Source of the DNA: a virus
DNA length: 64,000 nt
Virus record (IMG/VR): IMGVR_UViG_3300045988_148502
Strand: one strand, 5' to 3'
A program made the position numbers and the translations under genes. A model generated the notes under the pieces. That model worked only from the letters and a program-made list of their open reading frames with translations, had not been told where the DNA came from and did not search any database. Below, piece after piece: positions 2,616 to 34,001 of this stretch (positions within the stretch are counted from its first letter, which is position 1; each line of letters starts with the position of its first letter).

Positions 2616-4586
2616 ATGAAAGCAATTCAGCTAAAATCAATCACGCTTCGCAACTGGCGTGGAGAAAAAGAAAGGACAACACAGTTCCATACAGATGGCA
2701 CTGTTACACGTATCTGTGGTCGTAACGGTCTCGGCAAGTCCAGGCACATGGATGCGTTCTGTTGGCTGCTTTTCGGCAAGGACAGCAAAGACCGTAAAGA
2801 CTTCAACTTGCGCACCACAGACGAAAAGGGCAATCCCCTACAGCATTGTGAATGCTCCGTAGAGGGAACATTAGTCGTTGATGGAACGGAAATTACCATC
2901 AAACGAGAGTATAAGGAGCAATGGGTCAAACCTCGTGGACAAGTAGAGGAAGTGTTCAAGGGGAATGTCACCGAATGCACATGGGACGGCGTACCTGTTC
3001 GTGTCAATGAGTATAAGGAACGTATAAATGCCGAAATCATTGATGAGAACCTTTTCAAGATGCTAACCAATACCGAGTATTTCCTATCGTTAAAACAAGA
3101 TGTTCAACGTGAAGTGTTAATGTCCATTGCCGGAGCCAAAACAGACAACGAATTGGCGCAGGGAAATGCAGAATTTACCGCTCTCGTAGACATGTTGAGT
3201 GGCAAATCATTGGCGGATTATCGTCGGCAGATTGCCGCAGAGAAAAAACGTCTAAAAATGCAAGCGGATGAAATCAAGCCACGTATCGACCAAACGGACA
3301 AGATGAAACCAGAAGCCGAGGATTGGAACTCATTGGAAGAAATGCTCACCGACAAAAAGAAAGAGCTGGAAGAAATAAACGAACTTCTGCATTCTGAAGA
3401 TGCTCGCAAGCAATCTGCCATCGATAAAAAAGCTGCGCTGAACCGTGAAAAACGGCAAATCGAACAGCAACAGAAGGATATTCTTGCCGCAGAAAGGAGA
3501 AGTCGTCAGGAGGAAGCCGATAAGCAGAACGAAACACGTAATGAAATCGAGAAAGAGTTGAAGAATATTCATTCCGAACGATCGGATTGCAATATAGACA
3601 TTACCCGTGCAAAAGAACGCATCAAGTATTTGAACGAAGAAATAACTAGAACAACAAGCAGACTTGAAGAATTACGTTCCGAATGGGCATCCATTCGTGC
3701 CACACAGTACACCGGTGATAATATCTGTCCTCATTGCGGCCAGCCTTTACCCGACAATATGATACAAGACGTTCTCCAAAAGTTTGAAGAATATAAACAA
3801 AACAGGCTCAAAGAGAATCAATCACGTGGAAAATCCCTGTCGACACAAGTCGAATCATACCGAGAGGAATTAAACAGGCGTAATGAAGAACTTGTAGAGC
3901 ATTCCAAAAAGATTACTGCCATTGACGAATGTATTGCAGGGCTGTATGATCGTCTGAAATCCACCCCGAAAGCAGCACCGTCCGCCATCAACGAAAACGA
4001 GCTGCCTGCGTATGCAGCAAACCTAAAACGTTTGGATGAGATAGAAAAAGAAATAGCAAATATCACATATACTCAGACAGATACCGAACTGTCCGAACGT
4101 GCCGAGTTGGTGAAATCTGCTATTAAGAACTTGGAAATCCAACTAAACAACCGTACCATTATCGCCAACTATGATAAAGAAATAGAGCGTCTTGAAAAGG
4201 AAGGTCGTGAACTCGCACAGAAGATAGCCGACATAGAGAAACGTGAATATATAGCTGCTAAGTTTGCCAAAGCTCGCATTGATGATTGTGAGAGCCGTTT
4301 GAACTCGCTGTTTGGCATGGTACACTGGAAACTTTTCGATACCACTCTTGACGGAAACGAATACGAAGTATGTATCCCTATAATTGATGGTGTGTCCTAT
4401 GGTACGTGCAATACAGCAAAGCAAGTGAACGCAGGTATTGACATCACCAACACATTGGCAAGGCATTACGAAGTCTATGCTCCAATGTTCATTGACCGTG
4501 CCGAAAGCGTGAATACATTCATTGCTTCCAACGCACAAATGATATTCTTGCAGGTTACAACAGACAGTCAACTAACAGTAAAATAA
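2616..4586 (+). CDS. Rad50/SbcC-like SMC-family recombination ATPase (656 aa)
   Basis: Walker A GRNGLGKS near the N-terminus. About 400 aa of coiled coil with a central CxxC hook (CPHCGQPLP). C-terminal Walker B/D-loop-like MFIDRAES. Confidence 0.75.
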   Translation: MKAIQLKSITLRNWRGEKERTTQFHTDGTVTRICGRNGLGKSRHMDAFCWLLFGKDSKDRKDFNLRTTDEKGNPLQHCECSVEGTLVVDGTEITIKREYKEQWVKPRGQVEEVFKGNVTECTWDGVPVRVNEYKERINAEIIDENLFKMLTNTEYFLSLKQDVQREVLMSIAGAKTDNELAQGNAEFTALVDMLSGKSLADYRRQIAAEKKRLKMQADEIKPRIDQTDKMKPEAEDWNSLEEMLTDKKKELEEINELLHSEDARKQSAIDKKAALNREKRQIEQQQKDILAAERRSRQEEADKQNETRNEIEKELKNIHSERSDCNIDITRAKERIKYLNEEITRTTSRLEELRSEWASIRATQYTGDNICPHCGQPLPDNMIQDVLQKFEEYKQNRLKENQSRGKSLSTQVESYREELNRRNEELVEHSKKITAIDECIAGLYDRLKSTPKAAPSAINENELPAYAANLKRLDEIEKEIANITYTQTDTELSERAELVKSAIKNLEIQLNNRTIIANYDKEIERLEKEGRELAQKIADIEKREYIAAKFAKARIDDCESRLNSLFGMVHWKLFDTTLDGNEYEVCIPIIDGVSYGTCNTAKQVNAGIDITNTLARHYEVYAPMFIDRAESVNTFIASNAQMIFLQVTTDSQLTVK

Positions 4587-8689: not shown

Positions 8690-9323
8690 ATTGCCATATA
8701 CCGCCAAGCAAGTTTACGCTATGCTATATGAAGCGTGCCGGGTGGAAGTTGCTCATAGGCATAGGGAATTTAATGCCACCGAACAATACAAAAAGCACCT
8801 TTGGGACATTTCCAATTGGATTACATCGGAAGCCTCCACTTTCGGATTGTTCCTTTGCGGCGATGCCGGAAATGGGAAAACCACCATTCTGCGTGCATTG
8901 CAAAACCTTATAAACTACTTGCGCTCTGATGAGGGGTATAACAGCAATGCGGATGCATATCCGATACGCGGCTACATGATGGTATCGGCTAAAGAACTCG
9001 TCTTGCTGGCTAAAGCGTATAACAATCACACACGCGACAACACCTCCGATGTGGCACGCTACAAAAGGCTGCGCCAAATCGAAATACTCGCAATCGACGA
9101 ACTCGGCTCCGAACCGAAAGAAAGCATTCATTATGGCGATTACGTAACCGCCGCCATGGATATGCTGTCTTTTCGCTATGAAGAGCAGTTCTGTACGCTG
9201 GTCTCATCCAATCTTACGGCAAAAGAAATTGCAGAATATTACGACGAACGAATTGCAGACCGTTTCCGTGAAATGATGCTAATCATCAATTTCGGCAATG
9301 AGCAGTCATTCAGAAAACAGTAA
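8658..9323 (+). CDS. DnaC/IstB-like AAA+ helicase-loader ATPase (221 aa; alternative starts 8580, 8673)
   Basis: Walker A LCGDAGNGKTTIL and Walker B ILAIDELGSEP. Overlaps the end of the upstream gene. Confidence 0.7.
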   Translation: MKRKHMVTRFRLPYTAKQVYAMLYEACRVEVAHRHREFNATEQYKKHLWDISNWITSEASTFGLFLCGDAGNGKTTILRALQNLINYLRSDEGYNSNADAYPIRGYMMVSAKELVLLAKAYNNHTRDNTSDVARYKRLRQIEILAIDELGSEPKESIHYGDYVTAAMDMLSFRYEEQFCTLVSSNLTAKEIAEYYDERIADRFREMMLIINFGNEQSFRKQ

Positions 9324-9339
9324 ACTAATTAAAAACATT

Positions 9340-9525
9340 ATGACGATGAATACAGATTATAGTTATTGTTCGGGCGTTACCTGCTCAATCCGCAAGAGTT
9401 GTAAACGCTATTTGCCCGATCCACCCGATACACGTTTGCAATGGGTATGGCCAGCATACAATCCGGGAACAGACAAATGCAAGTACTATGAACCAACTAA
9501 AGTAGCAAAAACAAAAAATCCGTAA
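9340..9525 (+). CDS. small Cys-rich hypothetical protein (61 aa)
   Basis: The ATG at 9340 lies after the upstream stop. Five Cys residues (CSGVTCSIRKSCKRY...DKCKYY). Confidence 0.45.
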   Translation: MTMNTDYSYCSGVTCSIRKSCKRYLPDPPDTRLQWVWPAYNPGTDKCKYYEPTKVAKTKNP

Positions 9526-9527
9526 TC

Positions 9528-10850
9528 ATGGAAAAGAATAAGTTTACCCATGGTAGTTTGTTCAGCGGCATCGGTGGTCCGGAAATAGCTGCCGAGGAAA
9601 TGGGCTGGAAAAATATGTTCCATTGTGAAATAAACCCGTTCGGGAGAAAAATACTTGATTATTGGTTCCCAAACAGCAAAAGTTATGAAGACATCACGAA
9701 AACAAATTTTACAGAGTGGCGTGGAAAAATCAATGTCCTCACCGGAGGTTTTCCCTGCCAGCCTTTTTCTTGCGCCGGACAGCGAAAGGGAGCGGAAGAT
9801 GACCGCTACCTCTGGCCGGAAATGCTACGAGCGATACGGGAGATTCAGCCCGATTGGGTTGTTGGTGAAAACGTTGCTGGAATCCTCTCAATGGTACAAC
9901 CCGGCAGTGAAACTGCGTTGGGACGTGAAGAATCTCTGTTCGGAGAGGTTGACCGAAAAAGAATATTGCATCGGCAGGAATACGTTGTCGAAACAGTGTG
10001 TAACGACCTTGAACGTGAAGGATATTTCGTCCAACCGGTTGTTATTCCGGCTTGTGCCGTCGGAGCGCCGCACAGAAGAGACCGTGTCTTCTTTATTGCC
10101 CACCGTGCAGACGCAGGGGTTAAAGGTATGCAACGAAAATGGGAAGACAACATTCTATCCGGTAGGACTGCTTCCGACACCACGTGCCGTGGAAGTGGTG
10201 GAACACCCCATGAAAGCTGCTGCGAGAACGAAAGACAGAACGGGTACGAAACTCAACAACCTTTCGTCAGGGGCTGCGTTCGGGCTTCTTCCCACTCCGA
10301 TGGCGAGCGATGCAACAACCGGAGCGATAATTGGAAAGAACGACCAATTTGTTACGACCAGAAACGGGACTCCGAGGAGAATCAATCAGAACGGACAGAA
10401 CGGATGCGTAGGACTTGCGAGAATGGTTCGGTTGCTTCCTACTCCCAATGCCCGGGAAGCGGACAAGTACAGCAAGAAATACAATCCGAACAGTCAAATG
10501 GGCACAGCTTTGACAGCAATGGCGGTGAATGGGATGCTCCCTACTCCAGCAGCGAGGGACTATCAACCCTCCGTTTCCCCACAAGCATTGAAAAGAAAAA
10601 ATGGGAAAATGAGGACGGATGCTCTGTGCAACCTGCCGGTAATGTTAGGAGAGCATCATTCGCAGAACGGTGGAAAAACTTCCCAACTCAATCCCCTGTT
10701 TGTAGCCGAGATGATGGGATTTCCACCAGATTGGACGGTATTGCCTTTTCAAAGTGGCGGCAGGAATCGATAAAGGCATATGGCAATGCGATTGTCCCAC
10801 AAGTAATGTATGAGATATTCCAAGCTATTCAAGAAACTTATAATCAATAA
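9528..10850 (+). CDS. DNA (cytosine-5)-methyltransferase, frame A (440 aa) with a low-complexity middle third
   Basis: Motif I FSGIGG, motif IV GFPCQPFS, motif VI ENVAGI, motif VIII PHRRDRVFF, motif X YGNAIVPQV. Residues ~196-375 are R/S/G/E/N/C-rich with no hydrophobic core. Confidence 0.8.
   Translation: MEKNKFTHGSLFSGIGGPEIAAEEMGWKNMFHCEINPFGRKILDYWFPNSKSYEDITKTNFTEWRGKINVLTGGFPCQPFSCAGQRKGAEDDRYLWPEMLRAIREIQPDWVVGENVAGILSMVQPGSETALGREESLFGEVDRKRILHRQEYVVETVCNDLEREGYFVQPVVIPACAVGAPHRRDRVFFIAHRADAGVKGMQRKWEDNILSGRTASDTTCRGSGGTPHESCCENERQNGYETQQPFVRGCVRASSHSDGERCNNRSDNWKERPICYDQKRDSEENQSERTERMRRTCENGSVASYSQCPGSGQVQQEIQSEQSNGHSFDSNGGEWDAPYSSSEGLSTLRFPTSIEKKKWENEDGCSVQPAGNVRRASFAERWKNFPTQSPVCSRDDGISTRLDGIAFSKWRQESIKAYGNAIVPQVMYEIFQAIQETYNQ
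9799..10773 (+). CDS. overlapping +1-frame ORF (frame B; open from 9655) carrying LLPTP repeats and an NPLFVAEMMGFPPDWT motif
   Basis: Lies fully inside the methyltransferase gene. Four [LM]LPTP-x-A-x-[DE] repeats (first at 10165-10182). C-terminal NPxFVExxMGFPxxWT-like motif, known from phage methyltransferases (from memory). Normal globular composition exactly where frame A is low-complexity. Confidence 0.5.
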   Translation: MTATSGRKCYERYGRFSPIGLLVKTLLESSQWYNPAVKLRWDVKNLCSERLTEKEYCIGRNTLSKQCVTTLNVKDISSNRLLFRLVPSERRTEETVSSLLPTVQTQGLKVCNENGKTTFYPVGLLPTPRAVEVVEHPMKAAARTKDRTGTKLNNLSSGAAFGLLPTPMASDATTGAIIGKNDQFVTTRNGTPRRINQNGQNGCVGLARMVRLLPTPNAREADKYSKKYNPNSQMGTALTAMAVNGMLPTPAARDYQPSVSPQALKRKNGKMRTDALCNLPVMLGEHHSQNGGKTSQLNPLFVAEMMGFPPDWTVLPFQSGGRNR

Positions 10851-10855
10851 TAACC

Positions 10856-11293
10856 ATGGACAATTCAATTTATAAAAAATGCACAGAGTGCGGGCAAACA
10901 AAGCATATTTCAGAGTTCAGCAAATCATATCCTAACAGGTGTAAAACTTGTGTAGCAGAACACACGAGACAAATGAGAGCTGCTGAAAAACTTAAAGCTA
11001 AAGTAAAGGCTACCGGCGAGGTCATAGATGTTGAACCGTCAGGTACTATGCAGGTTTTATGCGGTTCATTCATAACGAAAGACGGTCGAAGAATGCCCGG
11101 AACAGCACTTGAATTTGAAAAAGCCATAGACTGGGAACAACGCAGATACGAGATTGCGAAAGAGATAATGAAAGGATTTTCAGCCAATTCACATAATCAG
11201 TGTGTGGATGCAAGTAGCGAAACGTTAGCCCAGTGGAGCATTAGCGGTGCTGATGCTCTTATTGCAGAATTGAAGAAAGGAGGTAAAGGATGA
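10856..11293 (+). CDS. hypothetical protein with N-terminal zinc-ribbon-like CxxC...CxxC (145 aa)
   Basis: KCTECGQ...RCKTCV at the N-terminus. Otherwise unrecognised. Confidence 0.55.
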   Translation: MDNSIYKKCTECGQTKHISEFSKSYPNRCKTCVAEHTRQMRAAEKLKAKVKATGEVIDVEPSGTMQVLCGSFITKDGRRMPGTALEFEKAIDWEQRRYEIAKEIMKGFSANSHNQCVDASSETLAQWSISGADALIAELKKGGKG

Positions 11294-12162
11294 AAGTAAT
11301 AGTTTCATTCAGTGGTGGCAAAGATAGTCTTGCATCACTTCTTTGGGTGCGTAATAACCTAACAAAAGATTTTATTACAGTATTTTGTGATACAGGTTGG
11401 GAACACCCATTGACCTATAAATATATCGAAGAAGTACAGGAACAACTTGGCTTAAATCTCATTACCGTCAAGTCAAAGAAGTTTAACGGTATGGTAGATT
11501 TGACAAAAAAGAAATCACGCTGGCCATCCTCGCAACGGAGATTCTGCACATCTGAATTGAAAACCATTCCGATGATTGACTACATACTCGATGAAGTAAA
11601 CGATGATGTTCTGATTATACAAGGAATACGTGCTGCCGAGAGTGCCAAGCGTGCCGAAATGTCCAAGCAATGTACGTACTTCAAGTATTATGTGCAGCCA
11701 TACGGTAAGGATAAGAATGGTAAGGACAAGTACCACACCTATCGTCGTAAAGATGTATTGGCATTTCGAAAGAAATATGCTGATGACCTATTGCGTCCGG
11801 TATTCGATTGGTCGGCACAACAAGTGATTGACTATATACTTGAAAATGGAATACAGCCTAATCCTCTCTACCGAATGGGCTACAAACGTGTTGGTTGCTT
11901 TCCTTGCGTGATGGCTTCACAACAAGACATTTACAATATCAGCGTACAAGAGCCAGAAAGGATAAGCTACATTGCAGGTCTCGAACAACAGTTCAACAGC
12001 AGTTTTTTCGGTCCTGATAAAATTTCATCTAAGTATTATAAGGGTGAATATCCTCTAATCAGCGATGTTGTTCGTTATGTACAAAGTAAACGTGCAGGTG
12101 GTTCTCTGTTCGACGATGATGTGGCAACAAGTTGTATGAGCTACTATGGGCTTTGTGAATAA
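11290..12162 (+). CDS. PAPS-reductase-like PP-loop ATPase family protein (290 aa)
   Basis: PP-loop SFSGGKDS at residues 6-13. The downstream ...RVGCFPCVMA motif is typical of phage PAPS-reductase-like proteins. ATGA overlap with the upstream gene. Confidence 0.8.
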   Translation: MKVIVSFSGGKDSLASLLWVRNNLTKDFITVFCDTGWEHPLTYKYIEEVQEQLGLNLITVKSKKFNGMVDLTKKKSRWPSSQRRFCTSELKTIPMIDYILDEVNDDVLIIQGIRAAESAKRAEMSKQCTYFKYYVQPYGKDKNGKDKYHTYRRKDVLAFRKKYADDLLRPVFDWSAQQVIDYILENGIQPNPLYRMGYKRVGCFPCVMASQQDIYNISVQEPERISYIAGLEQQFNSSFFGPDKISSKYYKGEYPLISDVVRYVQSKRAGGSLFDDDVATSCMSYYGLCE

Positions 12163-26063: not shown

Positions 26064-29000
26064 CTATTCAATTATAACGAATTTTCCGCGGAAGGCCAGA
26101 CGCGCCCCGCAGAGCGTGTCCGAGCTCGATGAAGCGAAGTACGCGCCCGCAAAAGCGAGACCGCTGTACGCATACGAGTTGTGGCCGGACCGCAAAACAC
26201 AACGGCCTCGGCTTCCACTTATCCAAAATCCTGCTGCATAATGTGTTACATACATACTTGTATCTCCCTTGTGTACTCTGCTGGGCAATACATCGCACTT
26301 GGCACCATGTACTATGCGCACGACACAATTTCCATTGGAAGCGTCAACTGTTTTAACAGTCCGTTCGGTTTTGTTTACGGGGTCATAAATATGCACTGTA
26401 TAATCTATTGGATATGAACTGTCGTTCTCCGTGCATTTTGCCTTGTAGAACGCTTCATAGCTCGGCACATTAAAAGCGATATAGTCCATCCATTCTGAAT
26501 CACAACCCACATAATGCTTCAATCCAAGTATGGAGTTGAGCGTATTGCCGGTATTATTGCTGTCAGCCATGCCGATGGAATCCAGTTTATTCAGAATGCT
26601 GTCATGTCCGCCATTGCCCACAACCGACTGTTCGTTGGTTGTTCCGCTCAAAGCCCACCATAGATTGCTAATCTCTTTATGCTGTTCGTAATCCTGCAAC
26701 TGATAGCCAACTCCACGTAAGCGGCAGATGTTTTGGAAATCCTTTGCCGTGTAATTCAAACCGCCGATAGGCATCTCAATAGGATTACCCTCACTGTCGT
26801 ATTTCCATTCGTTAGATGTAACGGACGTCCCGTTGCCTTTCTTCGAACGTATATCACCGGAAAGGCTGCGTGGCATCTTCAAACCGTCAACGGTAATAGG
26901 ATATACACCGACCAGACTGTCGTTGTCGCCAACCGTGTGTTCGGTCCATTCAGGTTCTATGGCTTCAATACTGCTGCTGTCTACAACAAGGCACTCTATG
27001 TCGCCAATGTCACGGAAAGAAGTGAAATAAAACCATTTTGCACCGTTAGGTATGTCACAGAACACATAATCACCGATGTTGAAGTCAAAATAGGTATGGC
27101 TTACAGACATGATGAACGTACTGAGCACACGGTTGTTTTCGTCAGTGAACACGCCTCCAAGCCGGGCATGGTTCAGACCGGGCCATCTTACCTGCTTCAT
27201 TCCTCTCACATCCATCTTGTAGCTGTTCGTATTGGATGCGGTGGTTATGACATCCTCGCCTATGACTTCACCGACAACGGCATCAATCGCATACACTCCG
27301 GTATTTTCCATATATAGCAATTCCGACAACAGGGATTTTCTGCTATGCAATGCAGTTGAGAGCGGTTCGGTCTCTGTTATAGAAGGGAAAAAATACTTTA
27401 CTTGGTTCTTGTAGTCGTTCACTCCCTTGTACCAATGGTGCGGAGCATGCCAGAATATATCAAAGCCCTCTCCGGCGGTGTCCGTTATGTCAAAGCTGCT
27501 GCCGTTTTTCAGGTAGTTGAAATCCGTATCGCTTAACTGCACGCCTTCCATCTGGTTTTTCTTCGTGTTGAATGAGCATTTATAGGCATGGCATCCTTTC
27601 TTGATGGCAAGGGTATGCCCGCTTGGAATATATGTGTTGCCATAATCCGCCCCCGTCTTATTTTCGGGATTGCTATACTTCTCACACGAATCATTGTCTA
27701 CCGTATCGCTGATTTTCACAATAGAGAACTGCGAATTATGAAGTTCAAGTTGGGGAAAATACCGGACAAGCTCTTCGATTTCGTTCTGCTCTATCAGTTC
27801 GACCAATATCCATCGTCCGGTTATTCCGCTACACTGTCCTTTTTCATCGTACGCATTACCATTCGCATCCAATCCTATAGCCCCACCGTTTTTTATGGAA
27901 CGAAGCATTTCAACACTCGCCGTAGCATTTACGTTGGGAATACGGACGGTTTTCAATTCACTTGCATTGACCACCTGTTCCAACAGAGTCATCGTATCAA
28001 TATACGGACATTCATTCACGAATATTTTTGTAACCTTACTGACACCACCAAGAGAAAGCCCGCCGGGATAAGTCAGATTAGGCAGATTGTTCAATACAAG
28101 TTCAGTGATAGTACCGGGAAGGGCAAGCGTACTTATCGGAGAAGTTTCAGCAAACGTTATTGCAGACAAAGAAGTATTATCGGCATGCACACTCTCCATT
28201 CGTGGACACTTTGAGCAATTGACGGTTATAATTTCCGTGTTTCGAATATCCAATGTAGTGAGAAACGGCATGTCTCCTAAATCCAAATTGGTAAGAAATC
28301 CGGTGTTTCCAGGCGACATTTTCCATTCCTTATGATTTTCACTACCGAGATACAGTTCCTGTAGCAACGACATTTTTGAAAGGGTATTCCCGAATTGAGG
28401 GTCAATACTTACTTCACTTAAATCTATCATGCTCATGCGGTCTGCCTGATATATGTACAGCATGATGTTTTCCCCATGCTGGAAATCTGTGAATGTACCG
28501 CTTTCCCCTGCCTTCAGAAAGATTCCCTGTGTAATGTTTCCACTATCGTTACCGATACCGAAATACCCACTCTTGGCCGCTTTAAATCTGATGACTGCAC
28601 CTTCTTTTGCACCGATACGTCCACCAATATAACCGCTTTCCGCCTTGAAATCCCCACAGCGGTAGTATCCGTCACGGATGCGCCAGCGTTGTTCTATAAA
28701 AGCGGGAAGAGATGTCAGCCCCAGTCCTTGCAATGCATAGAAATAGAGGTCGTTGTATCCTGTATATTTGATATACTTCCGTTCTCCGTCATAACTTGAA
28801 ACAACCTTAGGCCATTTTTTCATTATCTGTTTTACAAAATAATAGTCAGCTCCCTTGGGAGAAAACGGTCCGGCACCGATTCCAAGTGTATCGGGAAGCG
28901 AACGCATCGTATCTGCTATTGCAGGCAATGTAATTGTATTGGCATTTTGGTCTACATCCATAGTCTGCTGACCACGTATATCATTCCAAAGCACGCTTCC

Positions 29001-32000
29001 TCTTCCGGCGTATGCACTGTTTGTCAGATCACCGGGGTCAACTTCCGGGTCAATGGTTTGCCCGCCGTCATTATCCTTACCGTTGCAGGTATCACAGTCA
29101 TAAACTTTATTAAGGTACATTCTTCGCGCTTCCATACCGTTTGCTCCGCTATAAACACCGTCCTTGACGCTACAGCCGTCTTCAAGGAAGAACATCGGTT
29201 GCATGTTTTTCGCCTGTTGGTCGACAGCGGCAAGATAATCGGTGAAAAGATAATAGGAAACCAACGAGTATGGATTGATGTATTTCCACATCTGTGTCTT
29301 CCAAATTTCCTGCCATTTCCCTGCGAGCTCTTCCTTGGCATAATCGCAACTGTCGCAGAATTTCAGTACTTGGTACAGGTCGAACGGTACTTTCCGTCCC
29401 ATGGCCAGGTCTATCTGTAACTGGTCATCGTCAATCATGCACTCGAAGTAACGTGTCCACATCGGGTAGGTTTCCTGTCCGAGTTTGAGTTTCGTTACCC
29501 ACGAGGACTCTGCGGTAGTAGGTTCCATCATGTCTTCAACGCTGCCAACCCCTTGCCACCAGTTCATTCCATCATATGTGAGCAATTCGTAACCGCTTAC
29601 CGGATTAAGGACCTTGCCTGTAATCTTCCACTTGCCGTTTTCCTGCTTCATCTCTCCGGCTTGTCGCGTCCACTCTCCCCGTTCGTATGACATAAACCGG
29701 TAGTCCTGCCCGCAATATAGGGAAAGAAGATAAAGCTTTTCTTTATCGGTGGTAATATCATTCTTGAAACGTGTTTCTATCTGGTCGATGCTTTCGCCCT
29801 TTTGTCCGAAATATTCCACAAAATCTCCATAGTTCACGCAGCCTTTATTGTAACCGGGAGTATCTTTAAACCCAAGCGCAACCTGTTCTCCCTTATCCTC
29901 CTTCCAGTTCCCTTTTGCATGAAACCATGCGTCTGTCAAGCTTTCCTGTGTAGCACGGAATGCGGCAATGGGATGATTGGCTGTCGAGTGATTCATTTCC
30001 AATCCCTTTAATGATATGTCACTCTTTGCCCAAGTTCCATCAAATGAACGCTGTGCGGGAGTCAGGTAATTACTTCCGAGTGCACGAAATGTGGCGTTCA
30101 TCAAACCGCACACACCGCAGTCGTTGGCATTGGAGCTGTCGGAATAATCCACTTTCACCGTTATTATTTTTACCGGAATAGAATCTTCGCCTACACGGAC
30201 ATAACCTATTCTCATCAGTTTATATGATATTTGAGCATCTTCACTGTCATAATCCGGATAAATAGGAGTTACCTCCCAGCCATCATTCTTTTGAAGATAG
30301 AAACGGTCGTTCTTGATAGGCCGTTTTGCCGAAGTGGTTCCCTGCCTGCGCCATTGCACATTGATAGCCTTAAAACTTCTCCACGGCATAGTCGGATGAT
30401 AATAGAACAACGTACATTTGAACTTCTTGCTTGTATCAATATCACCGTCAAACGTGTCAAAAGTTTGCTGGTCTGACACGACCACATAATAAGGTATGCC
30501 TTTTGCGGAAAGGGCTTCTATTGTCGGACGATTCTGTGTATCAAGCACATTCTCCGCTTCATACTCCTGTATCATTGCTGAAGTATCAGTCAACTTGCAC
30601 AAATAGTTTCTAAAAGCTTGCGCCCATTCATAATGACTGTTGTAGGCAAGTACATAATACAAATACAAGTCTCCTTCCGTTCCGTCAAATGTTATGGTTT
30701 TTGAATTAAGGATAGCACCGCTATTACTGATATATCCTATACAGCCGACCTCTTCACCATTCAAATACAGTTTGATACAGGAATAATTGCTTCCCCCACG
30801 TGATACATAAATGGTAGATGGTTCTACAACTACGGCCATGGTAATTTTTTCACCTTGTCGGAATGAGCGTTCCACCAAAGCCGGTTGTCCGGTCTTGCAG
30901 TATATCGCAGCTTTATTTCCACAGACATAGAAACCGGCTCCGCTATCAGGGTCATAGCATTCTATCAGCTTTGAATCAGCTTCCTTGATATTTTTGGTGG
31001 CAAAGGCAAATTGGATGGCACATCCGCTCGTAGTTTCCACTGATGCGTTTCCAAAAGGATGGTAATCCAATATTTCAGCTGTTACATTTTCTGCAATACG
31101 CAAAGAACGCTCCTTAAGAAAGTCTACAAATCCGTTGCTTGACCAGTTTGCACCTCGTACATCCATTGTCACTCCGTTATGTGTGATAGTATGATCGCTC
31201 TCACTGTTGCTACGTGTAGAAAAATCATATCCGAACAAAGCACCGTCCTTGATCGCTATATCAATGGCACTCCCTTTTATCGTAACCTTGATTTCATTGG
31301 TGGATACACCGCCACTTTCGGCATGTACGGTAATACTTTGGCTTCCGTCCGTACTATATCCGCTTATCTGCTTGTTCACTGTAACCGTTTCGGCAATCAT
31401 AGCTTCCACAGCTGTAACTTTCTCCTCGCTGTAGAAAACATCTACATGCGTTTCAGTCTTGCCGGGAGTATACGCAGCCACCTCTACGGTAAGGTTGTCA
31501 TATAAACGTAACGTGCCGTTGTTCTTGTCATTGAACCTGATGGCGACGATGGGAGTATTACTGTTTTCGTCCACACACATGATAGCGGAATAGATGGTGT
31601 TTCCCTTTACTCCGGATTTCTTCTCCGTACCGTATATTCGTACAGGATATGCGCCATGCGAAAGTCTTTCTCCGCCACCGAATACATTTGTTGGATTGAC
31701 AGAGATGCCTTTGGTATAACTGTCGCTTACCGTTGCTTCACCAAGTTTCTTCCATTCTCCATTATAGAACATCTCCACTACTGCAAGAATGGATGAAGTG
31801 TTATTAGGGAATTTATAGAATTGTCCGATATTTTTTGCCGGACCACCTGCAACAAGGATAGTATCACTTGTGTAATTCAAAGCCATGGGTTGTTCTACGG
31901 TAATATCCACAGCCATAATGGTAATGGCTTTTTTCTTGGTATTTCCATCCGAATCTGTAGCTTGCACAAAGAAGCTTTTGCTGGCGGCACTGCTGAAATA

Positions 32001-34001
32001 ACTTGTGAAGTCAAGTTCAAACTTGTAATCGGTCGCACTTGCAGAGCCTACAGTGTTCATATCCTCACTGGATAATGTCAGTCCGGTGCTTGCATCAATA
32101 ATAGTGATGTTACGAATGACACCAAGCACCTCGTTACCATCAGGATAGCTGACACTACGCAAAGCTACATTGATTTTTATCTCTGAGCCGAATGCCATAA
32201 TAGGAGCGGCTTCCTCGAAGTAGATAGACAATGTACTATCCTCACTGGAGCCGCCACCACCTCCATTTTTGGGTATTTTAAGCACAATATCCTCTATCTG
32301 TCCGCCATTCAGATTGGTGGCTTTGTAGTAAATGTAGTCTTCATCACTTTCTTCATCAAATCCGCCGATAGCTTTCTCCTGCATTATGTATGCCCCGCCT
32401 GTGGAAAGGGCATCTTTTCCTCCCTCTGCCGGTTTGTCGGATGTTTCCACCTTGCTTCCGCCACTGCCGAATGCTACCCACGGTTTCAGATCATCAGGGC
32501 TGATGTCACTCTTATCGCGTGTGAACTGATAGGCAAGCCATACAGGTGCGCCATTTTTATCACTTTCCGCAGTCTTGAATGTAAGGACGATACCGCTTTT
32601 CAAATAAGAGAACCCGCTTTCTTTCTCAAGGTCAACAACAGCTTTTATGGCTGTTCCCAAAGTATATTCTCCATCTCCGCAAAGGTCGTTCACGTTGATG
32701 GTGTTGCCTACGTTTCCACCACCGGAAGTCCCGAAATCCGTCCAGTTGCTTTCTTTACTCCAATCAGAGGTATTTGTCCATTGTTTTGAAACCCATCCGG
32801 CTTCTGTAAGGAATATCAAGACAACACCCGGAATCTGCAAAGCAGAAGCATATTCAGAAGTCGCACACCTGTCAAGTGCTACGGAAAATGTTATCTCCCT
32901 ATCTGAAAGGTCAAACAGATGGTTGACATTCACAACGCTACGCGATACGACTTGTTTATTGAGTGAAAGTATTGCCTTCTTGTTTTCTTCGACCTGCTTC
33001 ATATCTTCCTGTAACTTCGCACCTTCATCACCGGGGAATGCAGTAGAGCTTGTATGTCCGAGAGCAAGGTCGGAGCCAATTGAAGTCAGTTGTTTACCGC
33101 TCCAACGATAACTTTTTCCATCTTCTTCACATAGAAAGACTTTGCCGGAAGAGGGTATTCGCCCGTTTGTACTTGCCGTACCGAAAACATCTGCATCCAA
33201 CCAGTTGTTATAATAAGTAGCAGTCTCGGATTCTCCGATTGTCGGAACGTATGCAAGCACAAAGCAACCATGTTCCTTATCATATACAACTTTACAACCC
33301 TCATCGTTGGAATTTTTGTCTATGGATTCATTTTTTACAGTAATGCCTACGGAAATGCCATAAAAATCTACCACGTCATCAATGTATCCGGGCAAATGTC
33401 GGCTCGGTACTTTCCCTTGTTCGTCAAGAGGGGCGATTCCTCCGTTTTCACCTTTTGATTCTTTGAAAGAGTTCAGTTGGCTTCCAACTTCATTCGCCTT
33501 GTTGTTTGCCTTGTTTGCGGTATCCTTGGTCGTGTTTACTTGGTCTTGCAACGAGTTGACACTATCACCAAGCGTGGTGAGGTTGGTGTCTTGCGCTTTG
33601 TTGCGGGCTTCTATATCCGTAATGTCGTCCTGCAGTTTGGTAATATCCTCTTGCAGTTTTTCTACGGCTTCGTTATACTGACCGCTGTCTATGGTCGGGT
33701 TGCCTCCACTCTGTCCGGTCGGGACCCATTCTCCGCCATCGCCCACATATATGGGAGCTGGTAAGGAAACACCCACAAGTGCCCACCATCCGTCATGTGG
33801 TAAAGGATAAGCCGCTTTCAGTTTTTCGATGGTCGTGAACAGTCCTTTGCTCACTCCCTTGATATTTTTTGCCTCAAGCCAGCCGTCCACCATTACGTTT
33901 CCTTTCAAGTGGGTCTTTCCCTGAACGGTCGCGTCACCACCTATCGCTGTATTGCGACCAACGGAGACATCACCGTCTATATGTTTTGATTCGTAACTCA
34001 T
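26064..34001 (-). CDS. giant tail-fibre / receptor-binding protein (2645 aa), DGR target
   Basis: The N-terminus has a beta-helix-like repeat, a coiled coil and GIAPLDEQGKVPSRHLP (a common phage-fibre motif, 33378-33450). LRR-like block around 27950-28320 (LTNLDLGDMPFLTTLDIRNTEI...). The C-terminal VR reads ...GRCVLRSGHNSYAYSGLAFAGAYFASSSSDTLCGARLAFRG, as in C-type-lectin-fold DGR targets. Confidence 0.85.
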   Translation of the reverse strand: MSYESKHIDGDVSVGRNTAIGGDATVQGKTHLKGNVMVDGWLEAKNIKGVSKGLFTTIEKLKAAYPLPHDGWWALVGVSLPAPIYVGDGGEWVPTGQSGGNPTIDSGQYNEAVEKLQEDITKLQDDITDIEARNKAQDTNLTTLGDSVNSLQDQVNTTKDTANKANNKANEVGSQLNSFKESKGENGGIAPLDEQGKVPSRHLPGYIDDVVDFYGISVGITVKNESIDKNSNDEGCKVVYDKEHGCFVLAYVPTIGESETATYYNNWLDADVFGTASTNGRIPSSGKVFLCEEDGKSYRWSGKQLTSIGSDLALGHTSSTAFPGDEGAKLQEDMKQVEENKKAILSLNKQVVSRSVVNVNHLFDLSDREITFSVALDRCATSEYASALQIPGVVLIFLTEAGWVSKQWTNTSDWSKESNWTDFGTSGGGNVGNTINVNDLCGDGEYTLGTAIKAVVDLEKESGFSYLKSGIVLTFKTAESDKNGAPVWLAYQFTRDKSDISPDDLKPWVAFGSGGSKVETSDKPAEGGKDALSTGGAYIMQEKAIGGFDEESDEDYIYYKATNLNGGQIEDIVLKIPKNGGGGGSSEDSTLSIYFEEAAPIMAFGSEIKINVALRSVSYPDGNEVLGVIRNITIIDASTGLTLSSEDMNTVGSASATDYKFELDFTSYFSSAASKSFFVQATDSDGNTKKKAITIMAVDITVEQPMALNYTSDTILVAGGPAKNIGQFYKFPNNTSSILAVVEMFYNGEWKKLGEATVSDSYTKGISVNPTNVFGGGERLSHGAYPVRIYGTEKKSGVKGNTIYSAIMCVDENSNTPIVAIRFNDKNNGTLRLYDNLTVEVAAYTPGKTETHVDVFYSEEKVTAVEAMIAETVTVNKQISGYSTDGSQSITVHAESGGVSTNEIKVTIKGSAIDIAIKDGALFGYDFSTRSNSESDHTITHNGVTMDVRGANWSSNGFVDFLKERSLRIAENVTAEILDYHPFGNASVETTSGCAIQFAFATKNIKEADSKLIECYDPDSGAGFYVCGNKAAIYCKTGQPALVERSFRQGEKITMAVVVEPSTIYVSRGGSNYSCIKLYLNGEEVGCIGYISNSGAILNSKTITFDGTEGDLYLYYVLAYNSHYEWAQAFRNYLCKLTDTSAMIQEYEAENVLDTQNRPTIEALSAKGIPYYVVVSDQQTFDTFDGDIDTSKKFKCTLFYYHPTMPWRSFKAINVQWRRQGTTSAKRPIKNDRFYLQKNDGWEVTPIYPDYDSEDAQISYKLMRIGYVRVGEDSIPVKIITVKVDYSDSSNANDCGVCGLMNATFRALGSNYLTPAQRSFDGTWAKSDISLKGLEMNHSTANHPIAAFRATQESLTDAWFHAKGNWKEDKGEQVALGFKDTPGYNKGCVNYGDFVEYFGQKGESIDQIETRFKNDITTDKEKLYLLSLYCGQDYRFMSYERGEWTRQAGEMKQENGKWKITGKVLNPVSGYELLTYDGMNWWQGVGSVEDMMEPTTAESSWVTKLKLGQETYPMWTRYFECMIDDDQLQIDLAMGRKVPFDLYQVLKFCDSCDYAKEELAGKWQEIWKTQMWKYINPYSLVSYYLFTDYLAAVDQQAKNMQPMFFLEDGCSVKDGVYSGANGMEARRMYLNKVYDCDTCNGKDNDGGQTIDPEVDPGDLTNSAYAGRGSVLWNDIRGQQTMDVDQNANTITLPAIADTMRSLPDTLGIGAGPFSPKGADYYFVKQIMKKWPKVVSSYDGERKYIKYTGYNDLYFYALQGLGLTSLPAFIEQRWRIRDGYYRCGDFKAESGYIGGRIGAKEGAVIRFKAAKSGYFGIGNDSGNITQGIFLKAGESGTFTDFQHGENIMLYIYQADRMSMIDLSEVSIDPQFGNTLSKMSLLQELYLGSENHKEWKMSPGNTGFLTNLDLGDMPFLTTLDIRNTEIITVNCSKCPRMESVHADNTSLSAITFAETSPISTLALPGTITELVLNNLPNLTYPGGLSLGGVSKVTKIFVNECPYIDTMTLLEQVVNASELKTVRIPNVNATASVEMLRSIKNGGAIGLDANGNAYDEKGQCSGITGRWILVELIEQNEIEELVRYFPQLELHNSQFSIVKISDTVDNDSCEKYSNPENKTGADYGNTYIPSGHTLAIKKGCHAYKCSFNTKKNQMEGVQLSDTDFNYLKNGSSFDITDTAGEGFDIFWHAPHHWYKGVNDYKNQVKYFFPSITETEPLSTALHSRKSLLSELLYMENTGVYAIDAVVGEVIGEDVITTASNTNSYKMDVRGMKQVRWPGLNHARLGGVFTDENNRVLSTFIMSVSHTYFDFNIGDYVFCDIPNGAKWFYFTSFRDIGDIECLVVDSSSIEAIEPEWTEHTVGDNDSLVGVYPITVDGLKMPRSLSGDIRSKKGNGTSVTSNEWKYDSEGNPIEMPIGGLNYTAKDFQNICRLRGVGYQLQDYEQHKEISNLWWALSGTTNEQSVVGNGGHDSILNKLDSIGMADSNNTGNTLNSILGLKHYVGCDSEWMDYIAFNVPSYEAFYKAKCTENDSSYPIDYTVHIYDPVNKTERTVKTVDASNGNCVVRIVHGAKCDVLPSRVHKGDTSMYVTHYAAGFWISGSRGRCVLRSGHNSYAYSGLAFAGAYFASSSSDTLCGARLAFRGKFVIIE
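26091..26206 (-). repeat. DGR variable repeat (VR), 116 nt, encoding the C-terminal ~39 residues of the fibre protein
   Basis: Counterpart of the TR. Lies in-frame at the extreme 3' end of ORF 26064-34001. Its 3' boundary (aaa to gcc) could be mutagenesis or IMH/IMH* divergence. Confidence 0.95.

What the first reader, a model, noticed from the sequence alone, without database searches (positions are those of the whole stretch)
9528..10850. C5-methyltransferase locus is stop-free in two overlapping frames for over 1.1 kb, and both frames carry methyltransferase-family-like motifs
- Frame A (9528-10850) has motifs I, IV, VI and VIII in its first ~195 aa and motif X (YGNAIVPQV) at its end.
- Residues ~196-375 of frame A form a polar low-complexity stretch where a target-recognition domain should be.
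- Frame B (+1, open 9655-10773) is globular over exactly that interval.
- Frame B carries four [LM]LPTP-x-A-x-[DE] repeats (GLLPTPRA, GLLPTPMASD, RLLPTPNARE, GMLPTPAARD).
- Frame B ends in NPLFVAEMMGFPPDWT, a motif I remember from phage methyltransferase C-termini.
- The same nucleotides (10680-10773) encode FPTQSPVCSRDDGISTRLDGIAFSKWRQES in frame A.
- Each LLPTP in frame B reads as A-S-D-T / S-S-H-S type low complexity in frame A.
- Chance openness of a 372-codon off-frame is very unlikely, roughly e^-14 at about one stop per 25 codons.
- Possible explanations are two compensating frameshifts (A to B to A, either biological recoding or assembly indels), a genuine overprinted gene, or a family-wide dual-coding property.
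Basis: partly seen in the sequence, partly recalled or inferred. Interest (0 to 1): 0.7.

Follow-up and report, generated by a model that had tools for sequence, protein, structure and literature searches.

The report
Two-subunit methyltransferase from nested genes
About 1.1 kb of this Bacteroides phage DNA is read in two overlapping frames, one giving the catalytic chain of a cytosine-5 DNA methyltransferase and the other a second conserved protein carrying its missing motif IX; this layout was shown experimentally for M.EcoHK31I in 1995 and turns out to be conserved across very many phage and prophage genes.

Summary
Frame A (9528-10850, 440 aa) and frame B (+1; open 9634-10773, conserved ATG at 9685, 362 aa) are both stop-free, while the third frame has 28 stops.

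It is not an assembly artefact. The gene has 2 mismatches and no indel against an isolated phage, and the identical protein sits on at least 1000 public contigs.

It is family-wide. In 136 of 164 related loci, from Bacteroidota to Paenibacillus, Chloroflexi and archaeal MAGs, the A ORF wholly contains the B ORF.

Synonymous-codon shuffles rule out chance (median P 0.001-0.08 per region). Frame A loses synonymous variation exactly where B has conserved motifs and at B's start codon. The middle evolves as a B-frame gene, with A only kept open.

Frame A carries motifs I, IV, VI, VIII and X. Frame B carries an N-terminal domain, four LLPTPxAxD modules and motif IX.

Best reading: nested alpha and beta subunit genes of a heterodimeric C5 methyltransferase, the architecture published for M.EcoHK31I. 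Relatives with M.AquI-like and other splits act as natural controls. A programmed A-B-A frameshift is not needed and poorly supported, but not excluded.

Verdict: new member of a known but under-annotated kind.

The parts
9528..10850 (+). alpha gene (frame A), 440 aa: the catalytic chain of a C5 DNA methyltransferase. It is the only CDS annotated here in Bacteroides phage BS-TP4 (XPO95461).
   Evidence: ORF. Hits PF00145 at 1.6e-40, TIGR00675 residues 10-434 and phrog_363. Annotation.
9685..10773 (+). beta gene (frame B, +1), 362 aa from the conserved ATG. It lies wholly inside alpha and is unannotated in BS-TP4.
   Evidence: ORF. Hits phrog_1008 at 4e-29. The ATG at this alignment column is present in 44 of 54 non-redundant loci, kept by TAT at alpha Y53. 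The 362-aa product is called 'hypothetical protein' on 64+31 contigs.
9561..10085 (+). alpha motifs I (FSGIGG 9561-9578), IV (PCQPFS 9753-9770), VI (ENV 9867-9875) and VIII (PHRRDR 10068-10085).
   Evidence: These columns are invariant across 54 loci.
9799..10107 (+). Conserved beta N-terminal domain (MTATSG, LLVKTLL, LLFRLVPS, LLPTV), encoded on the same nucleotides as alpha motifs IV-VIII.
   Evidence: Synonymous diversity of alpha falls to 0.62 here against 0.87 outside (p=5.5e-7), with zeros at D92, V116, P170 and A175. It is the only part of beta that AlphaFold2 folds with pLDDT 65-87.
10113..10679 (+). alpha middle (residues 196-384): a polar, unconserved spacer that is only kept free of stops.
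   Evidence: Hydrophobic fraction is 22%. Amino-acid identity is 43% in frame A against 67% in frame B on the same columns. Substitutions per site at B codon positions 1, 2, 3 are 0.26, 0.20, 0.46. P(open by chance) has a median of 0.001.
10168..10560 (+). Four beta [LM]LPTPxAx[DE] modules (10168-10194, 10285-10311, 10432-10458, 10534-10560), presumed to be the target-recognition part.
   Evidence: The module count varies from 0 to 4 per beta in 54 relatives and tracks gene length (r=0.75). The consensus in the 124-sequence alignment is WPTPxAxD.
10687..10737 (+). beta motif IX (LNPLFVAEMMGFPPDWT). The same bases read TQSPVCSRDDGISTRL in alpha.
   Evidence: alpha synonymous diversity is 0.39 over residues 386-415 and about 0 at T387-G397. 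hhalign of the beta profile against a relative where this element lies 15 residues before GNAVVP in one chain gives probability 97%, E=1.6e-11.
10782..10805 (+). alpha motif X (GNAIVPQV), downstream of the beta stop codon (10771-10773).
   Evidence: Synonymous diversity is back to 0.90 after the beta stop.

Best explanation
The locus holds two genes on the same strand, one wholly inside the other.

**alpha (frame A, 9528-10850)** is the large catalytic chain of a cytosine-5 DNA methyltransferase.
- It has motifs I, IV, VI and VIII, then a ~190-residue polar spacer, then motif X.
- The spacer sequence is dictated by the other frame and only needs to stay free of stops.

**beta (frame B, +1, ATG 9685 to stop 10773)** is a 362-aa protein with three parts.
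- A conserved N-terminal domain, encoded on the same bases as alpha motifs IV-VIII.
- Four LLPTPxAxD modules where a target-recognition domain belongs.
- Motif IX at its C-terminus.

**Shown here:**
- Both frames are real, ancient and under purifying selection.
- alpha lacks motif IX and beta supplies it.
- The middle evolves as a beta-coding sequence.
- Openness of the alpha middle goes with motif X being in the alpha frame.

**Inferred**, from the published behaviour of M.EcoHK31I and M.AquI:
- beta starts translation independently inside the alpha mRNA.
- The two chains assemble into one active enzyme. alpha provides AdoMet binding and catalysis. beta provides the small domain (recognition modules plus motif IX) and, through its N-terminal domain, the grip on alpha.

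**Inferred from context:** the gene sits in the phage replication module with no nuclease partner, so it probably acts as an orphan methyltransferase that protects phage DNA from host restriction.
For: **1. Family-wide nesting.**
- The A ORF contains the B ORF in 136 of 164 loci spanning Bacteroidota, Bacillota, Chloroflexi, Alphaproteobacteria, Saccharibacteria and an archaeal MAG.
- It also holds in short 254-263-aa methyltransferases from Bacillus, Lacticaseibacillus and Methanomethylovorans plasmids, and in E. coli phages N15 and K1ind2.

**2. Openness is selected.**
- P(A open over the middle | B protein) has a median of 0.001 (permutation) or 0.0 (flank codon usage).
- P(B open over IV-VIII | A protein) has a median of 0.08 or 0.004, yet B is open in 127 of 128 loci.
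- The third frame is open in 0 of 128.

**3. Synonymous constraint in alpha sits exactly at beta's conserved residues and start codon.**
- Diversity is 0.87 outside the overlap, 0.62 over IV-VIII (p=5.5e-7) and 0.39 over motif IX (p=3.3e-5).
- TAT at Y53 preserves the beta ATG in 44 of 54 loci.

**4. The middle is beta-coded.**
- The substitution pattern over B codon positions 1, 2, 3 is 0.26, 0.20, 0.46.
- Amino-acid identity is 67% in B against 43% in A.

**5. Natural controls.** In Brevibacillus (L156, L164) and Mycobacterium phage 40AC, motif X lies in the beta frame. There alpha stops 8-13 codons after motif VIII and its frame is closed.

**6. The B frame closes just upstream of its start.** There is a median of 9 codons between the upstream stop and the first ATG. 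GGAGG-like sites lie 6-12 nt upstream in several Bacillota loci.

**7. beta is a large family.** It matches phrog_1008 (Bloom beta 6e-72). The profile finds 26,401 cluster representatives at E<=1e-10.

**8. [quoted passage not shown]
Against: - There is no direct evidence here that beta is translated, or that alpha and beta bind.
- Structure prediction was uninformative: beta mean pLDDT 51, alpha 36. Foldseek found nothing.
- A joint alpha+beta model could not be run.
- The motif IX assignment is strong only against a relative of the same clade. Against a canonical Vibrio Dcm, the profile aligns to the right place (IQSFPDHWD) but at E=0.82.
- Sequence homology to M.EcoHK31I itself could not be tested, because the paper and its sequences are not held.
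- For M.EcoHK31I the literature places the predicted TRD in alpha. Here the conserved variable-region modules are in beta.
- Reading A, then B, then A would rebuild the canonical order I-VIII, TRD, IX, X. A frameshifted fusion product is therefore an attractive alternative or additional product.
Confidence: 0.75

Rival explanations
1. Programmed recoding. Ribosomes start in frame A, shift +1 just after motif VIII, read the LLPTP modules and motif IX in frame B, then shift -1 back to frame A for motif X. This makes one canonical single-chain methyltransferase, alone or alongside alpha and beta.
For: - The cross-frame reading restores the canonical order I-VIII, TRD, IX, X in all three arrangements seen.
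- In the AquI-like relatives, alpha stops 8-13 codons after motif VIII, where a single +1 shift would fuse it to beta.
- In Megaera plasmids, motif IX is in the same frame as motif X.
Against: - Recoding does not explain why frame A is kept stop-free for ~190 unconserved codons (median chance 0.001).
- It does not explain why that openness disappears precisely when motif X is in the beta frame.
- It does not explain why frame B is open and under amino-acid selection ~140 codons upstream of the shift point, with a conserved ATG.
- No conserved slippery heptamer was found: only 24 of 54 loci have any X_XXY_YYZ in the last 40 beta codons.
- There is no local excess of synonymous constraint at alpha residues 187-195.
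- M.EcoHK31I and M.AquI work as two separate polypeptides.
Confidence: 0.08
2. Sequencing or assembly error. A conventional single-frame gene carries two compensating indels in this assembly.
For: Frameshift alleles of this very gene do occur in public assemblies. They include 1-nt deletions at 9820 and 10039, and a double-shift allele P0066.
Against: - The window gene has no indel against the isolated phage BS-TP4.
- The exact alpha protein is on at least 1000 contigs.
- The same two-frame layout recurs in 136 divergent loci and in dozens of independently sequenced Paenibacillus phages.
Confidence: 0.01
3. Frame B is an untranslated shadow. Its openness and apparent conservation are by-products of the strongly conserved alpha sequence and codon usage.
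For: Over motifs IV-VIII, alpha conservation alone gives some chance of an open +1 frame (median 0.08 by permutation, up to 0.77 in a few loci). Motifs such as FPASL mirror FPCQP.
Against: - In the middle, alpha is not conserved at all, yet beta is (67% against 43% identity, with a wobble pattern in the B frame).
- alpha codons are frozen at sites where the alternatives would not create stops but would change beta residues, for example A175, P170 and V116.
- Motif IX, which alpha lacks, is found only in B.
Confidence: 0.03
4. beta is translated but is not a methyltransferase subunit. It could be, for example, an unrelated DNA-binding or anti-defence protein overprinted on the gene.
For: - beta has no Pfam, NCBIfam or PDB match.
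- Its N-terminal domain has no counterpart in canonical C5 methyltransferases.
- Some relatives carry extra LPTP modules or long unrelated extensions, such as P0344 at 869 aa.
Against: - beta carries the one canonical motif alpha lacks, at the canonical distance from motif X when the frames are joined.
- In AquI-like relatives the same protein continues into motif X.
- beta has never been seen here away from an alpha catalytic region.
Confidence: 0.1

Closest known systems
M.EcoHK31I (E. coli; Lee, Kam & Shaw 1995, as summarised in PMC2836561 and PMC3404938)
   Same: - It is a natural two-chain C5 methyltransferase.
- beta is encoded entirely inside the alpha gene in another reading frame.
[quoted passage not shown]
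- Both chains are required for activity.
- The beta N-terminus mediates association with alpha.
- Sizes fit the short members of this family: alpha 309 and beta 176 aa published, against alpha 254-309 aa and nested +1 ORFs of 171-265 codons in L165, L166, L169 and K1ind2.
   Different: - The window genes are larger: alpha 440 aa and beta 362 aa.
- The conserved variable-region modules (four LLPTPxAxD) lie in beta, whereas the literature places the predicted TRD of M.EcoHK31I in alpha.
- The overlap reaches back over alpha motifs IV-VIII.
M.AquI (Synechococcus PCC 7002; Karreman & de Waard 1990, as summarised in PMC3404938)
   Same: [quoted passage not shown] Relatives of the window gene show exactly this division of motifs: Brevibacillus L156 and L164, and Mycobacterium phage 40AC gp84/gp83.
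   Different: In the window, motif X is in alpha and beta is fully nested rather than partly overlapping. Homology to M.AquI was not tested.
Canonical monomeric C5 methyltransferases (M.HhaI/Dcm type, PF00145)
   Same: alpha has motifs I, IV, VI, VIII and X with normal spacing and significant profile hits. Joined across frames, the order I-VIII, variable region, IX, X is canonical.
   Different: In canonical enzymes the variable region and motif IX are in the same polypeptide and frame. A Vibrio Dcm control has 33 stops in its +1 frame.
phrog_1008, and scattered annotations of the nested ORF: Paenibacillus larvae phages with a second 'DNA cytosine methyltransferase' CDS, and K1ind2 'putative Mte8-like protein'
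   Same: These are the same beta family. Bloom BLOOM_57 matches phrog_1008 at 6e-72 over residues 1-231. K1ind2 ORF28 is nested at +1 in ORF29.
   Different: They are annotated by similarity only, with no stated function or subunit model. The Paenibacillus phage genomics paper does not discuss them. beta is not annotated in BS-TP4 or BKO1-TP3.

Membership tests
C5 cytosine DNA methyltransferase (PF00145 / TIGR00675) | Motifs I (FxGxG), IV (PCQ), VI (ENV), VIII (RxR) and X (GNAxxP) in one chain, with a significant profile match | tested here: met
   Frame A has FSGIGG, PCQPFS, ENV, PHRRDR and GNAIVPQV. It hits PF00145 at 1.6e-40 and TIGR00675 at 1.8e-32, above the curated cut-offs.
C5 cytosine DNA methyltransferase (PF00145 / TIGR00675) | Variable (target-recognition) region and motif IX between motifs VIII and X in the same chain | tested here: not met
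   Frame A residues 196-384 are polar and unconserved. The motif IX-like element is in frame B.
EcoHK31I-type heterodimeric C5 methyltransferase | beta ORF lies entirely within the alpha gene in a different reading frame | tested here: met
   beta 9685-10773 lies inside alpha 9528-10850, in the +1 frame. The same holds in 136 of 164 relatives.
EcoHK31I-type heterodimeric C5 methyltransferase | alpha carries motifs I-VIII and X; beta carries motif IX | tested here: met
   The beta C-terminus aligns to the element 15 residues before GNAVVP in a single-chain relative (probability 97%). Against a canonical Dcm the match is positional only (E=0.82).
EcoHK31I-type heterodimeric C5 methyltransferase | Predicted TRD in alpha (as stated for M.EcoHK31I) | tested here: not met
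   The conserved modules between motifs VIII and IX are in beta. The alpha spacer is not conserved.
EcoHK31I-type heterodimeric C5 methyltransferase | Both polypeptides are made, and both are required for methylation | not testable with these tools
   Only indirect evidence is available: selection on both frames, a conserved beta ATG, and natural controls.
EcoHK31I-type heterodimeric C5 methyltransferase | Sequence homology to M.EcoHK31I alpha and beta | not tested
   The 1995 paper and its sequences are not held. There was no match by name in any output.
M.AquI-type split C5 methyltransferase | alpha ends after motif VIII; beta carries motifs IX and X | tested here: not met
   In the window, motif X is in alpha. 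The feature is met by relatives L156, L164 and phage 40AC.
Programmed ribosomal frameshift gene | Conserved slippery site; the zero frame closes soon after the shift; the new frame has no independent conserved start or upstream coding constraint | tested here: not met
   - Frame A stays open for 190 codons past the putative shift.
- The beta ATG is conserved in 44 of 54 loci, and beta is constrained upstream.
- A slippery heptamer is present in only 24 of 54 loci.
phrog_1008 | Significant profile match | tested here: met
   Frame B scores 4e-29. Paenibacillus phage Bloom beta scores 6e-72 over nearly the whole profile.

The most novel reading that the evidence does not exclude
The nested alpha/beta layout is not a curiosity of one E. 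coli enzyme. It is the ancestral, obligatory design of a very large clade of phage, prophage and plasmid C5 methyltransferases. The beta profile finds tens of thousands of 50%-identity clusters.

[quoted passage not shown] Three interconvertible splits of motifs IX and X exist between the two frames. The variable number of LPTP recognition modules in beta might set, or multiply, sequence specificity. I found no family-level description in the held literature.
Probability: 0.4. Interest if true: 0.7.

Novelty: new member of a known kind. Interest (0 to 1): 0.55.

Why it matters
**Annotation.**
- Gene callers report only the longer frame, so the beta subunit is missing from BS-TP4, BKO1-TP3 and RefSeq-style annotation. 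NCBIfam has no model that matches it.
- Where beta is called, it is named 'hypothetical protein' or mislabelled 'DNA methyltransferase'.
- Anyone cloning alpha alone to assign a methylation specificity may get an inactive enzyme.

**Overlapping genes.** For their study, this is a rare, clean case.
- Both products have recognisable roles.
- Both frames show measurable purifying selection.
- Natural variants (AquI-like and Megaera-like) show what happens when the constraint is relaxed.

**Phage-host biology.**
- The gene is on at least 1000 public contigs under a Bacteroidales-wide protein name. It probably shapes restriction evasion.
- The many frameshift alleles in public assemblies suggest that it is often lost or switched off.

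Tried and rejected
**Searches and models that gave nothing useful**
- Pfam, NCBIfam and PDB sequence searches with frame B returned nothing usable.
- AlphaFold2 of beta with a 124-sequence alignment gave mean pLDDT 51. Only the N-terminal domain was confident. Foldseek against the PDB gave no hit below E=1.
- AlphaFold2 of alpha gave mean pLDDT 36, because only homologues at 74% identity or above could be supplied. I disregard this model.
- A chimera-based alignment (A4) was abandoned, because MAFFT aligned beta N-domains onto alpha catalytic columns.

**Literature**
- The primary M.EcoHK31I and M.AquI papers are not held, and no supplementary files are held for the 2009 paper. Homology to those enzymes is therefore untested.
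- Searches for a family-level description, for 'Mte8', and for the Paenibacillus phage annotation gave nothing relevant.

**Ideas rejected**
- I suspected that the many A-to-B fusion proteins in the database were artefacts of frameshift-tolerant gene callers. The DNA really carries 1-nt deletions, so this was rejected.
- I looked for -1 slippery heptamers. None was conserved.
- I searched plasmids for an enterobacterial beta as a route to M.EcoHK31I and found none. Enterobacterial phage examples were found later.
Full report
**What is there**

The window matches Bacteroides phage BS-TP4 (PQ571277) at 99.9% over 9300-11000, and the record is in the opposite orientation to the window. Within the gene there are two substitutions and no indel.

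Frame A is an ATG ORF at 9528-10850 (440 aa). Frame B (+1) is an ORF at 9655-10773, stop-free from 9634. Stops within 9528-10850 number 1, 4 and 28 in frames A, B and the third frame.

Frame A hits PF00145 (1.6e-40), TIGR00675 and phrog_363. Frame B hits only phrog_1008 (4e-29), a phage family labelled 'DNA methyltransferase'.

**Chance**

- Keeping the A protein and permuting synonymous codons leaves the +1 frame open in 0.0002 of trials. With the window's own codon usage it is 0 of 5000.
- Keeping the B protein, the -1 frame is open in 0 of 5000 trials, with 24 stops expected.
- The next longest off-frame run in the whole window is 156 codons, against 379 here.

**Not an assembly artefact**

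The exact 440-aa protein is on at least 1000 public contigs and carries the name 'MULTISPECIES: DNA cytosine methyltransferase [Bacteroidales]'.

Searching with frame B brought up many 414-aa proteins that start in frame A and finish in frame B, with at least eleven different junctions. I first suspected a frameshift-tolerant gene caller. The DNA of two of them, however, really carries 1-nt deletions in short homopolymers, at 9820 and 10039.

These are minority alleles, decayed prophage copies or errors. They show up as long ORFs only because both frames are open. They say nothing against the wild-type layout.

**Family-wide**

The same nested +1 ORF occurs in several places.
- Bacteroides phage BKO1-TP3 has it, with beta 48.8% identical by tblastn.
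- Paenibacillus larvae phages have it too. Some records even annotate it as a second 'DNA cytosine methyltransferase' CDS, for example BLOOM_56 and BLOOM_57.

I fetched 159 further loci from viral and genome collections. In 136 of the 164 loci held at that point, the A-frame ORF (with PCQ, ENV and GNA) wholly contains the B ORF. The third frame is open for only ~10-50 codons. Hosts include Bacteroidota, Paenibacillus, Virgibacillus, Clostridia, Dehalococcoidales, Emcibacter, Saccharibacteria and a Methanosarcinales MAG.

Other examples extend the range.
- 254-263-aa 'short' methyltransferases on Bacillus, Lacticaseibacillus and Methanomethylovorans plasmids carry a 171-184-codon nested ORF with the same hallmarks.
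- E. coli phages N15 and K1ind2 carry it as well. In K1ind2 the nested ORF is annotated 'putative Mte8-like protein'.
- A Vibrio Dcm control has 33 stops in its +1 frame.
- A profile of 124 beta sequences finds 43,019 cluster representatives at E<=1e-3 and 26,401 at E<=1e-10 among 1.84 billion.

**Selection on both frames**

*Openness.* For 128 nested loci:
- The probability that frame A stays open over the middle, given the B protein, has a median of 0.001 (permutation) or 0.0 (flank codon usage).
- The probability that frame B stays open over alpha motifs IV-VIII, given the A protein, has a median of 0.08 or 0.004. Yet B is open in 127 of 128 loci.
- The third frame is open in none.

*Synonymous constraint.* In 54 non-redundant loci, normalised synonymous codon diversity of alpha varies by region.

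| Region of alpha | Diversity | p vs outside the overlap |
|---|---|---|
| Outside the overlap | 0.87 | n/a |
| Motifs IV-VIII | 0.62 | 5.5e-7 |
| Residues 386-415 | 0.39 | 3.3e-5 |

- Diversity is zero or close to it at D92, V116, P170, A175 and A177, and low at L95, V178 and H182. These sites encode beta MTATSG, KTLL and LLFRLVPS.
- It is near zero at T387-G397, which encode beta LNPLFVAEMMGFP.
- Several of these frozen codons have alternatives that would not create a stop but would change the beta residue. Beta's amino-acid sequence is therefore what is being kept.
- Y53 is TAT in 47 of the 50 loci that have Tyr there. In 44 of 54 loci the B-frame triplet at that column is ATG, corresponding to window 9685. 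The first B ATG lies 23 codons before PCQ in most loci.

*The middle.* Substitutions per site at B codon positions 1, 2, 3 are 0.26, 0.20 and 0.46. Amino-acid identity is 67% in B against 43% in A on the same columns. The A reading is only 22% hydrophobic. The middle is therefore a beta-coding sequence, and alpha merely has to read through it.

**Division of labour**

alpha has motifs I, IV, VI, VIII and X but nothing conserved between VIII and X. beta has:
- an N-terminal domain, the only part AlphaFold2 models with pLDDT 65-87;
- one degenerate and four clear LLPTPxAxD modules;
- LNPLFVAEMMGFPPDWT at its C-terminus.

The beta profile aligns that last element, at 97% probability (E=1.6e-11), to RLNPDWVEWLMGYPISWTD of a Megaera plasmid enzyme. 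There it sits 15 residues before GNAVVP in the same chain, which is the motif IX position. Against a canonical Vibrio Dcm it aligns to IQSFPDHWD, the right place, but not significantly.

**Natural controls**

- In Brevibacillus L156 and L164 and in Mycobacterium phage 40AC (gp84/gp83), the B frame runs on through motif IX and motif X. There alpha stops 8-13 codons after motif VIII and its frame is closed.
- In two Megaera plasmids that are 89% identical in DNA, motifs IX and X are both in alpha, while the LPTP modules remain in a 177-codon +1 ORF.

So the alpha spacer is kept open exactly when alpha needs to reach motif X. The recognition modules are in the +1 frame in every arrangement seen.

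The other exceptions among the 164 loci are decayed copies with in-frame stops or frameshifts.

**Mechanism**

The best-supported reading is two polypeptides. alpha is translated from 9528. beta starts internally at 9685. In Bacillota, the first B ATG follows the upstream B-frame stop by 0-2 codons in most loci examined, and GGAGG-like sites lie 6-12 nt upstream in several. The two chains would assemble into one enzyme.

This is what was shown experimentally for M.EcoHK31I. [quoted passage not shown] Both chains are required, and the beta N-terminus governs association (PMC2836561; PMC3404938). M.AquI is the precedent for the variant with motifs IX and X in beta.

Translation of beta, assembly and activity are inferred here, not shown.

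BS-TP4 annotates no nuclease partner next to the gene, which lies in the replication module. An orphan, anti-restriction role is therefore likely, but this too is inferred.

**Rivals**

It does not explain the selected openness of the alpha spacer, the upstream constraint and start codon of beta, or the lack of a conserved slippery site. I keep it at about 8%, possibly as an additional product.
- *Assembly error* is refuted.
- *An untranslated shadow frame* is contradicted by the B-frame substitution pattern in the middle.
- *A beta protein unrelated to methylation* is unlikely. It carries the motif that alpha lacks, and it fuses to motif X in relatives.

**Novelty**

The kind is known from M.EcoHK31I (1995), so this gene is a new member of it.

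What looks under-appreciated:
- the scale and age of the family;
- the recognition modules lying in beta rather than alpha;
- the three interconvertible splits;
- the systematic non-annotation of beta.

I found no family-level description in the held literature. That library is incomplete, and I could not test homology to M.EcoHK31I itself.

Noticed in passing
window 9820 and 10039; loci L004 and L005; proteins P0002-P0118, P0066, P0428, P0441: Public assemblies hold many broken alleles of this same gene.
- 1-nt deletions in short homopolymers fuse frame A to frame B at 11 or more different points.
- One allele is a double-shift A-B-A form (P0066).
- One has an internal duplication (P0428).
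- One has a replaced C-terminus (P0441).

They are a minority beside at least 1000 contigs with the intact gene. Even so, they suggest frequent inactivation in prophages, or error-prone assembly at this spot.
   Followed up: partly
L072, about 2900-3400 (IMG/VR UViG_3300045988_088788): An HNH-endonuclease-like segment of roughly 130 aa is inserted in the alpha C-terminus, between PVCRGNDGLP and TKWRQESVKGYGNA. It disrupts the end of beta. The same copy also has an in-frame stop at 2249.
   Followed up: no
L156, L164 (Brevibacillus); L174 (Mycobacterium phage 40AC gp84/gp83); L170, L171 (Candidatus Megaera plasmids): Relatives split the motifs differently between the two frames. In the first three, motifs IX and X are in beta and alpha stops after motif VIII (M.AquI-like). 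In Megaera, motifs IX and X are in alpha and only the LPTP modules lie in the +1 frame.
   Followed up: partly
L173 (Escherichia phage K1ind2, GU196280) 561-1490 and 649-1446: The nested ORF is annotated 'putative Mte8-like protein'. Its alpha chain is 309 aa, the length published for M.EcoHK31I alpha. I could not resolve whether that is coincidence or kinship, and I could not trace the origin of the name Mte8.
   Followed up: partly
L167 (Enterococcus casseliflavus plasmid dcm) 1483-2940: This is a canonical 485-aa C5 methyltransferase with motifs IX and X in its own frame. Its +1 frame is nevertheless open for 144 codons across motifs IV-VIII, ending ...LLSDILEEQVPKRFFLSQEK. Unexplained.
   Followed up: no
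window 43276-59451 (-) and 26064-34001 (-): There are two giant ORFs of 5391 and 2645 aa on the minus strand. The 144-156-codon off-frame open runs at 55.6-57.4 kb on the plus strand are antisense to the larger one.
   Followed up: no
window 11290-12162 (+): A PAPS-reductase-like gene lies one to three genes downstream of the methyltransferase in both BS-TP4 and BKO1-TP3. This hints at a conserved DNA-modification module.
   Followed up: no
proteins P0304, P0426, P0401, P0344 (beta-family representatives): Some beta homologues carry extra LPTP modules ahead of the N-terminal domain, or begin with a motif I-like FSGIGG. One (P0344) is 869 aa, with a long unrelated C-terminal extension. The family therefore has more architectures than the three described.
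   Followed up: no
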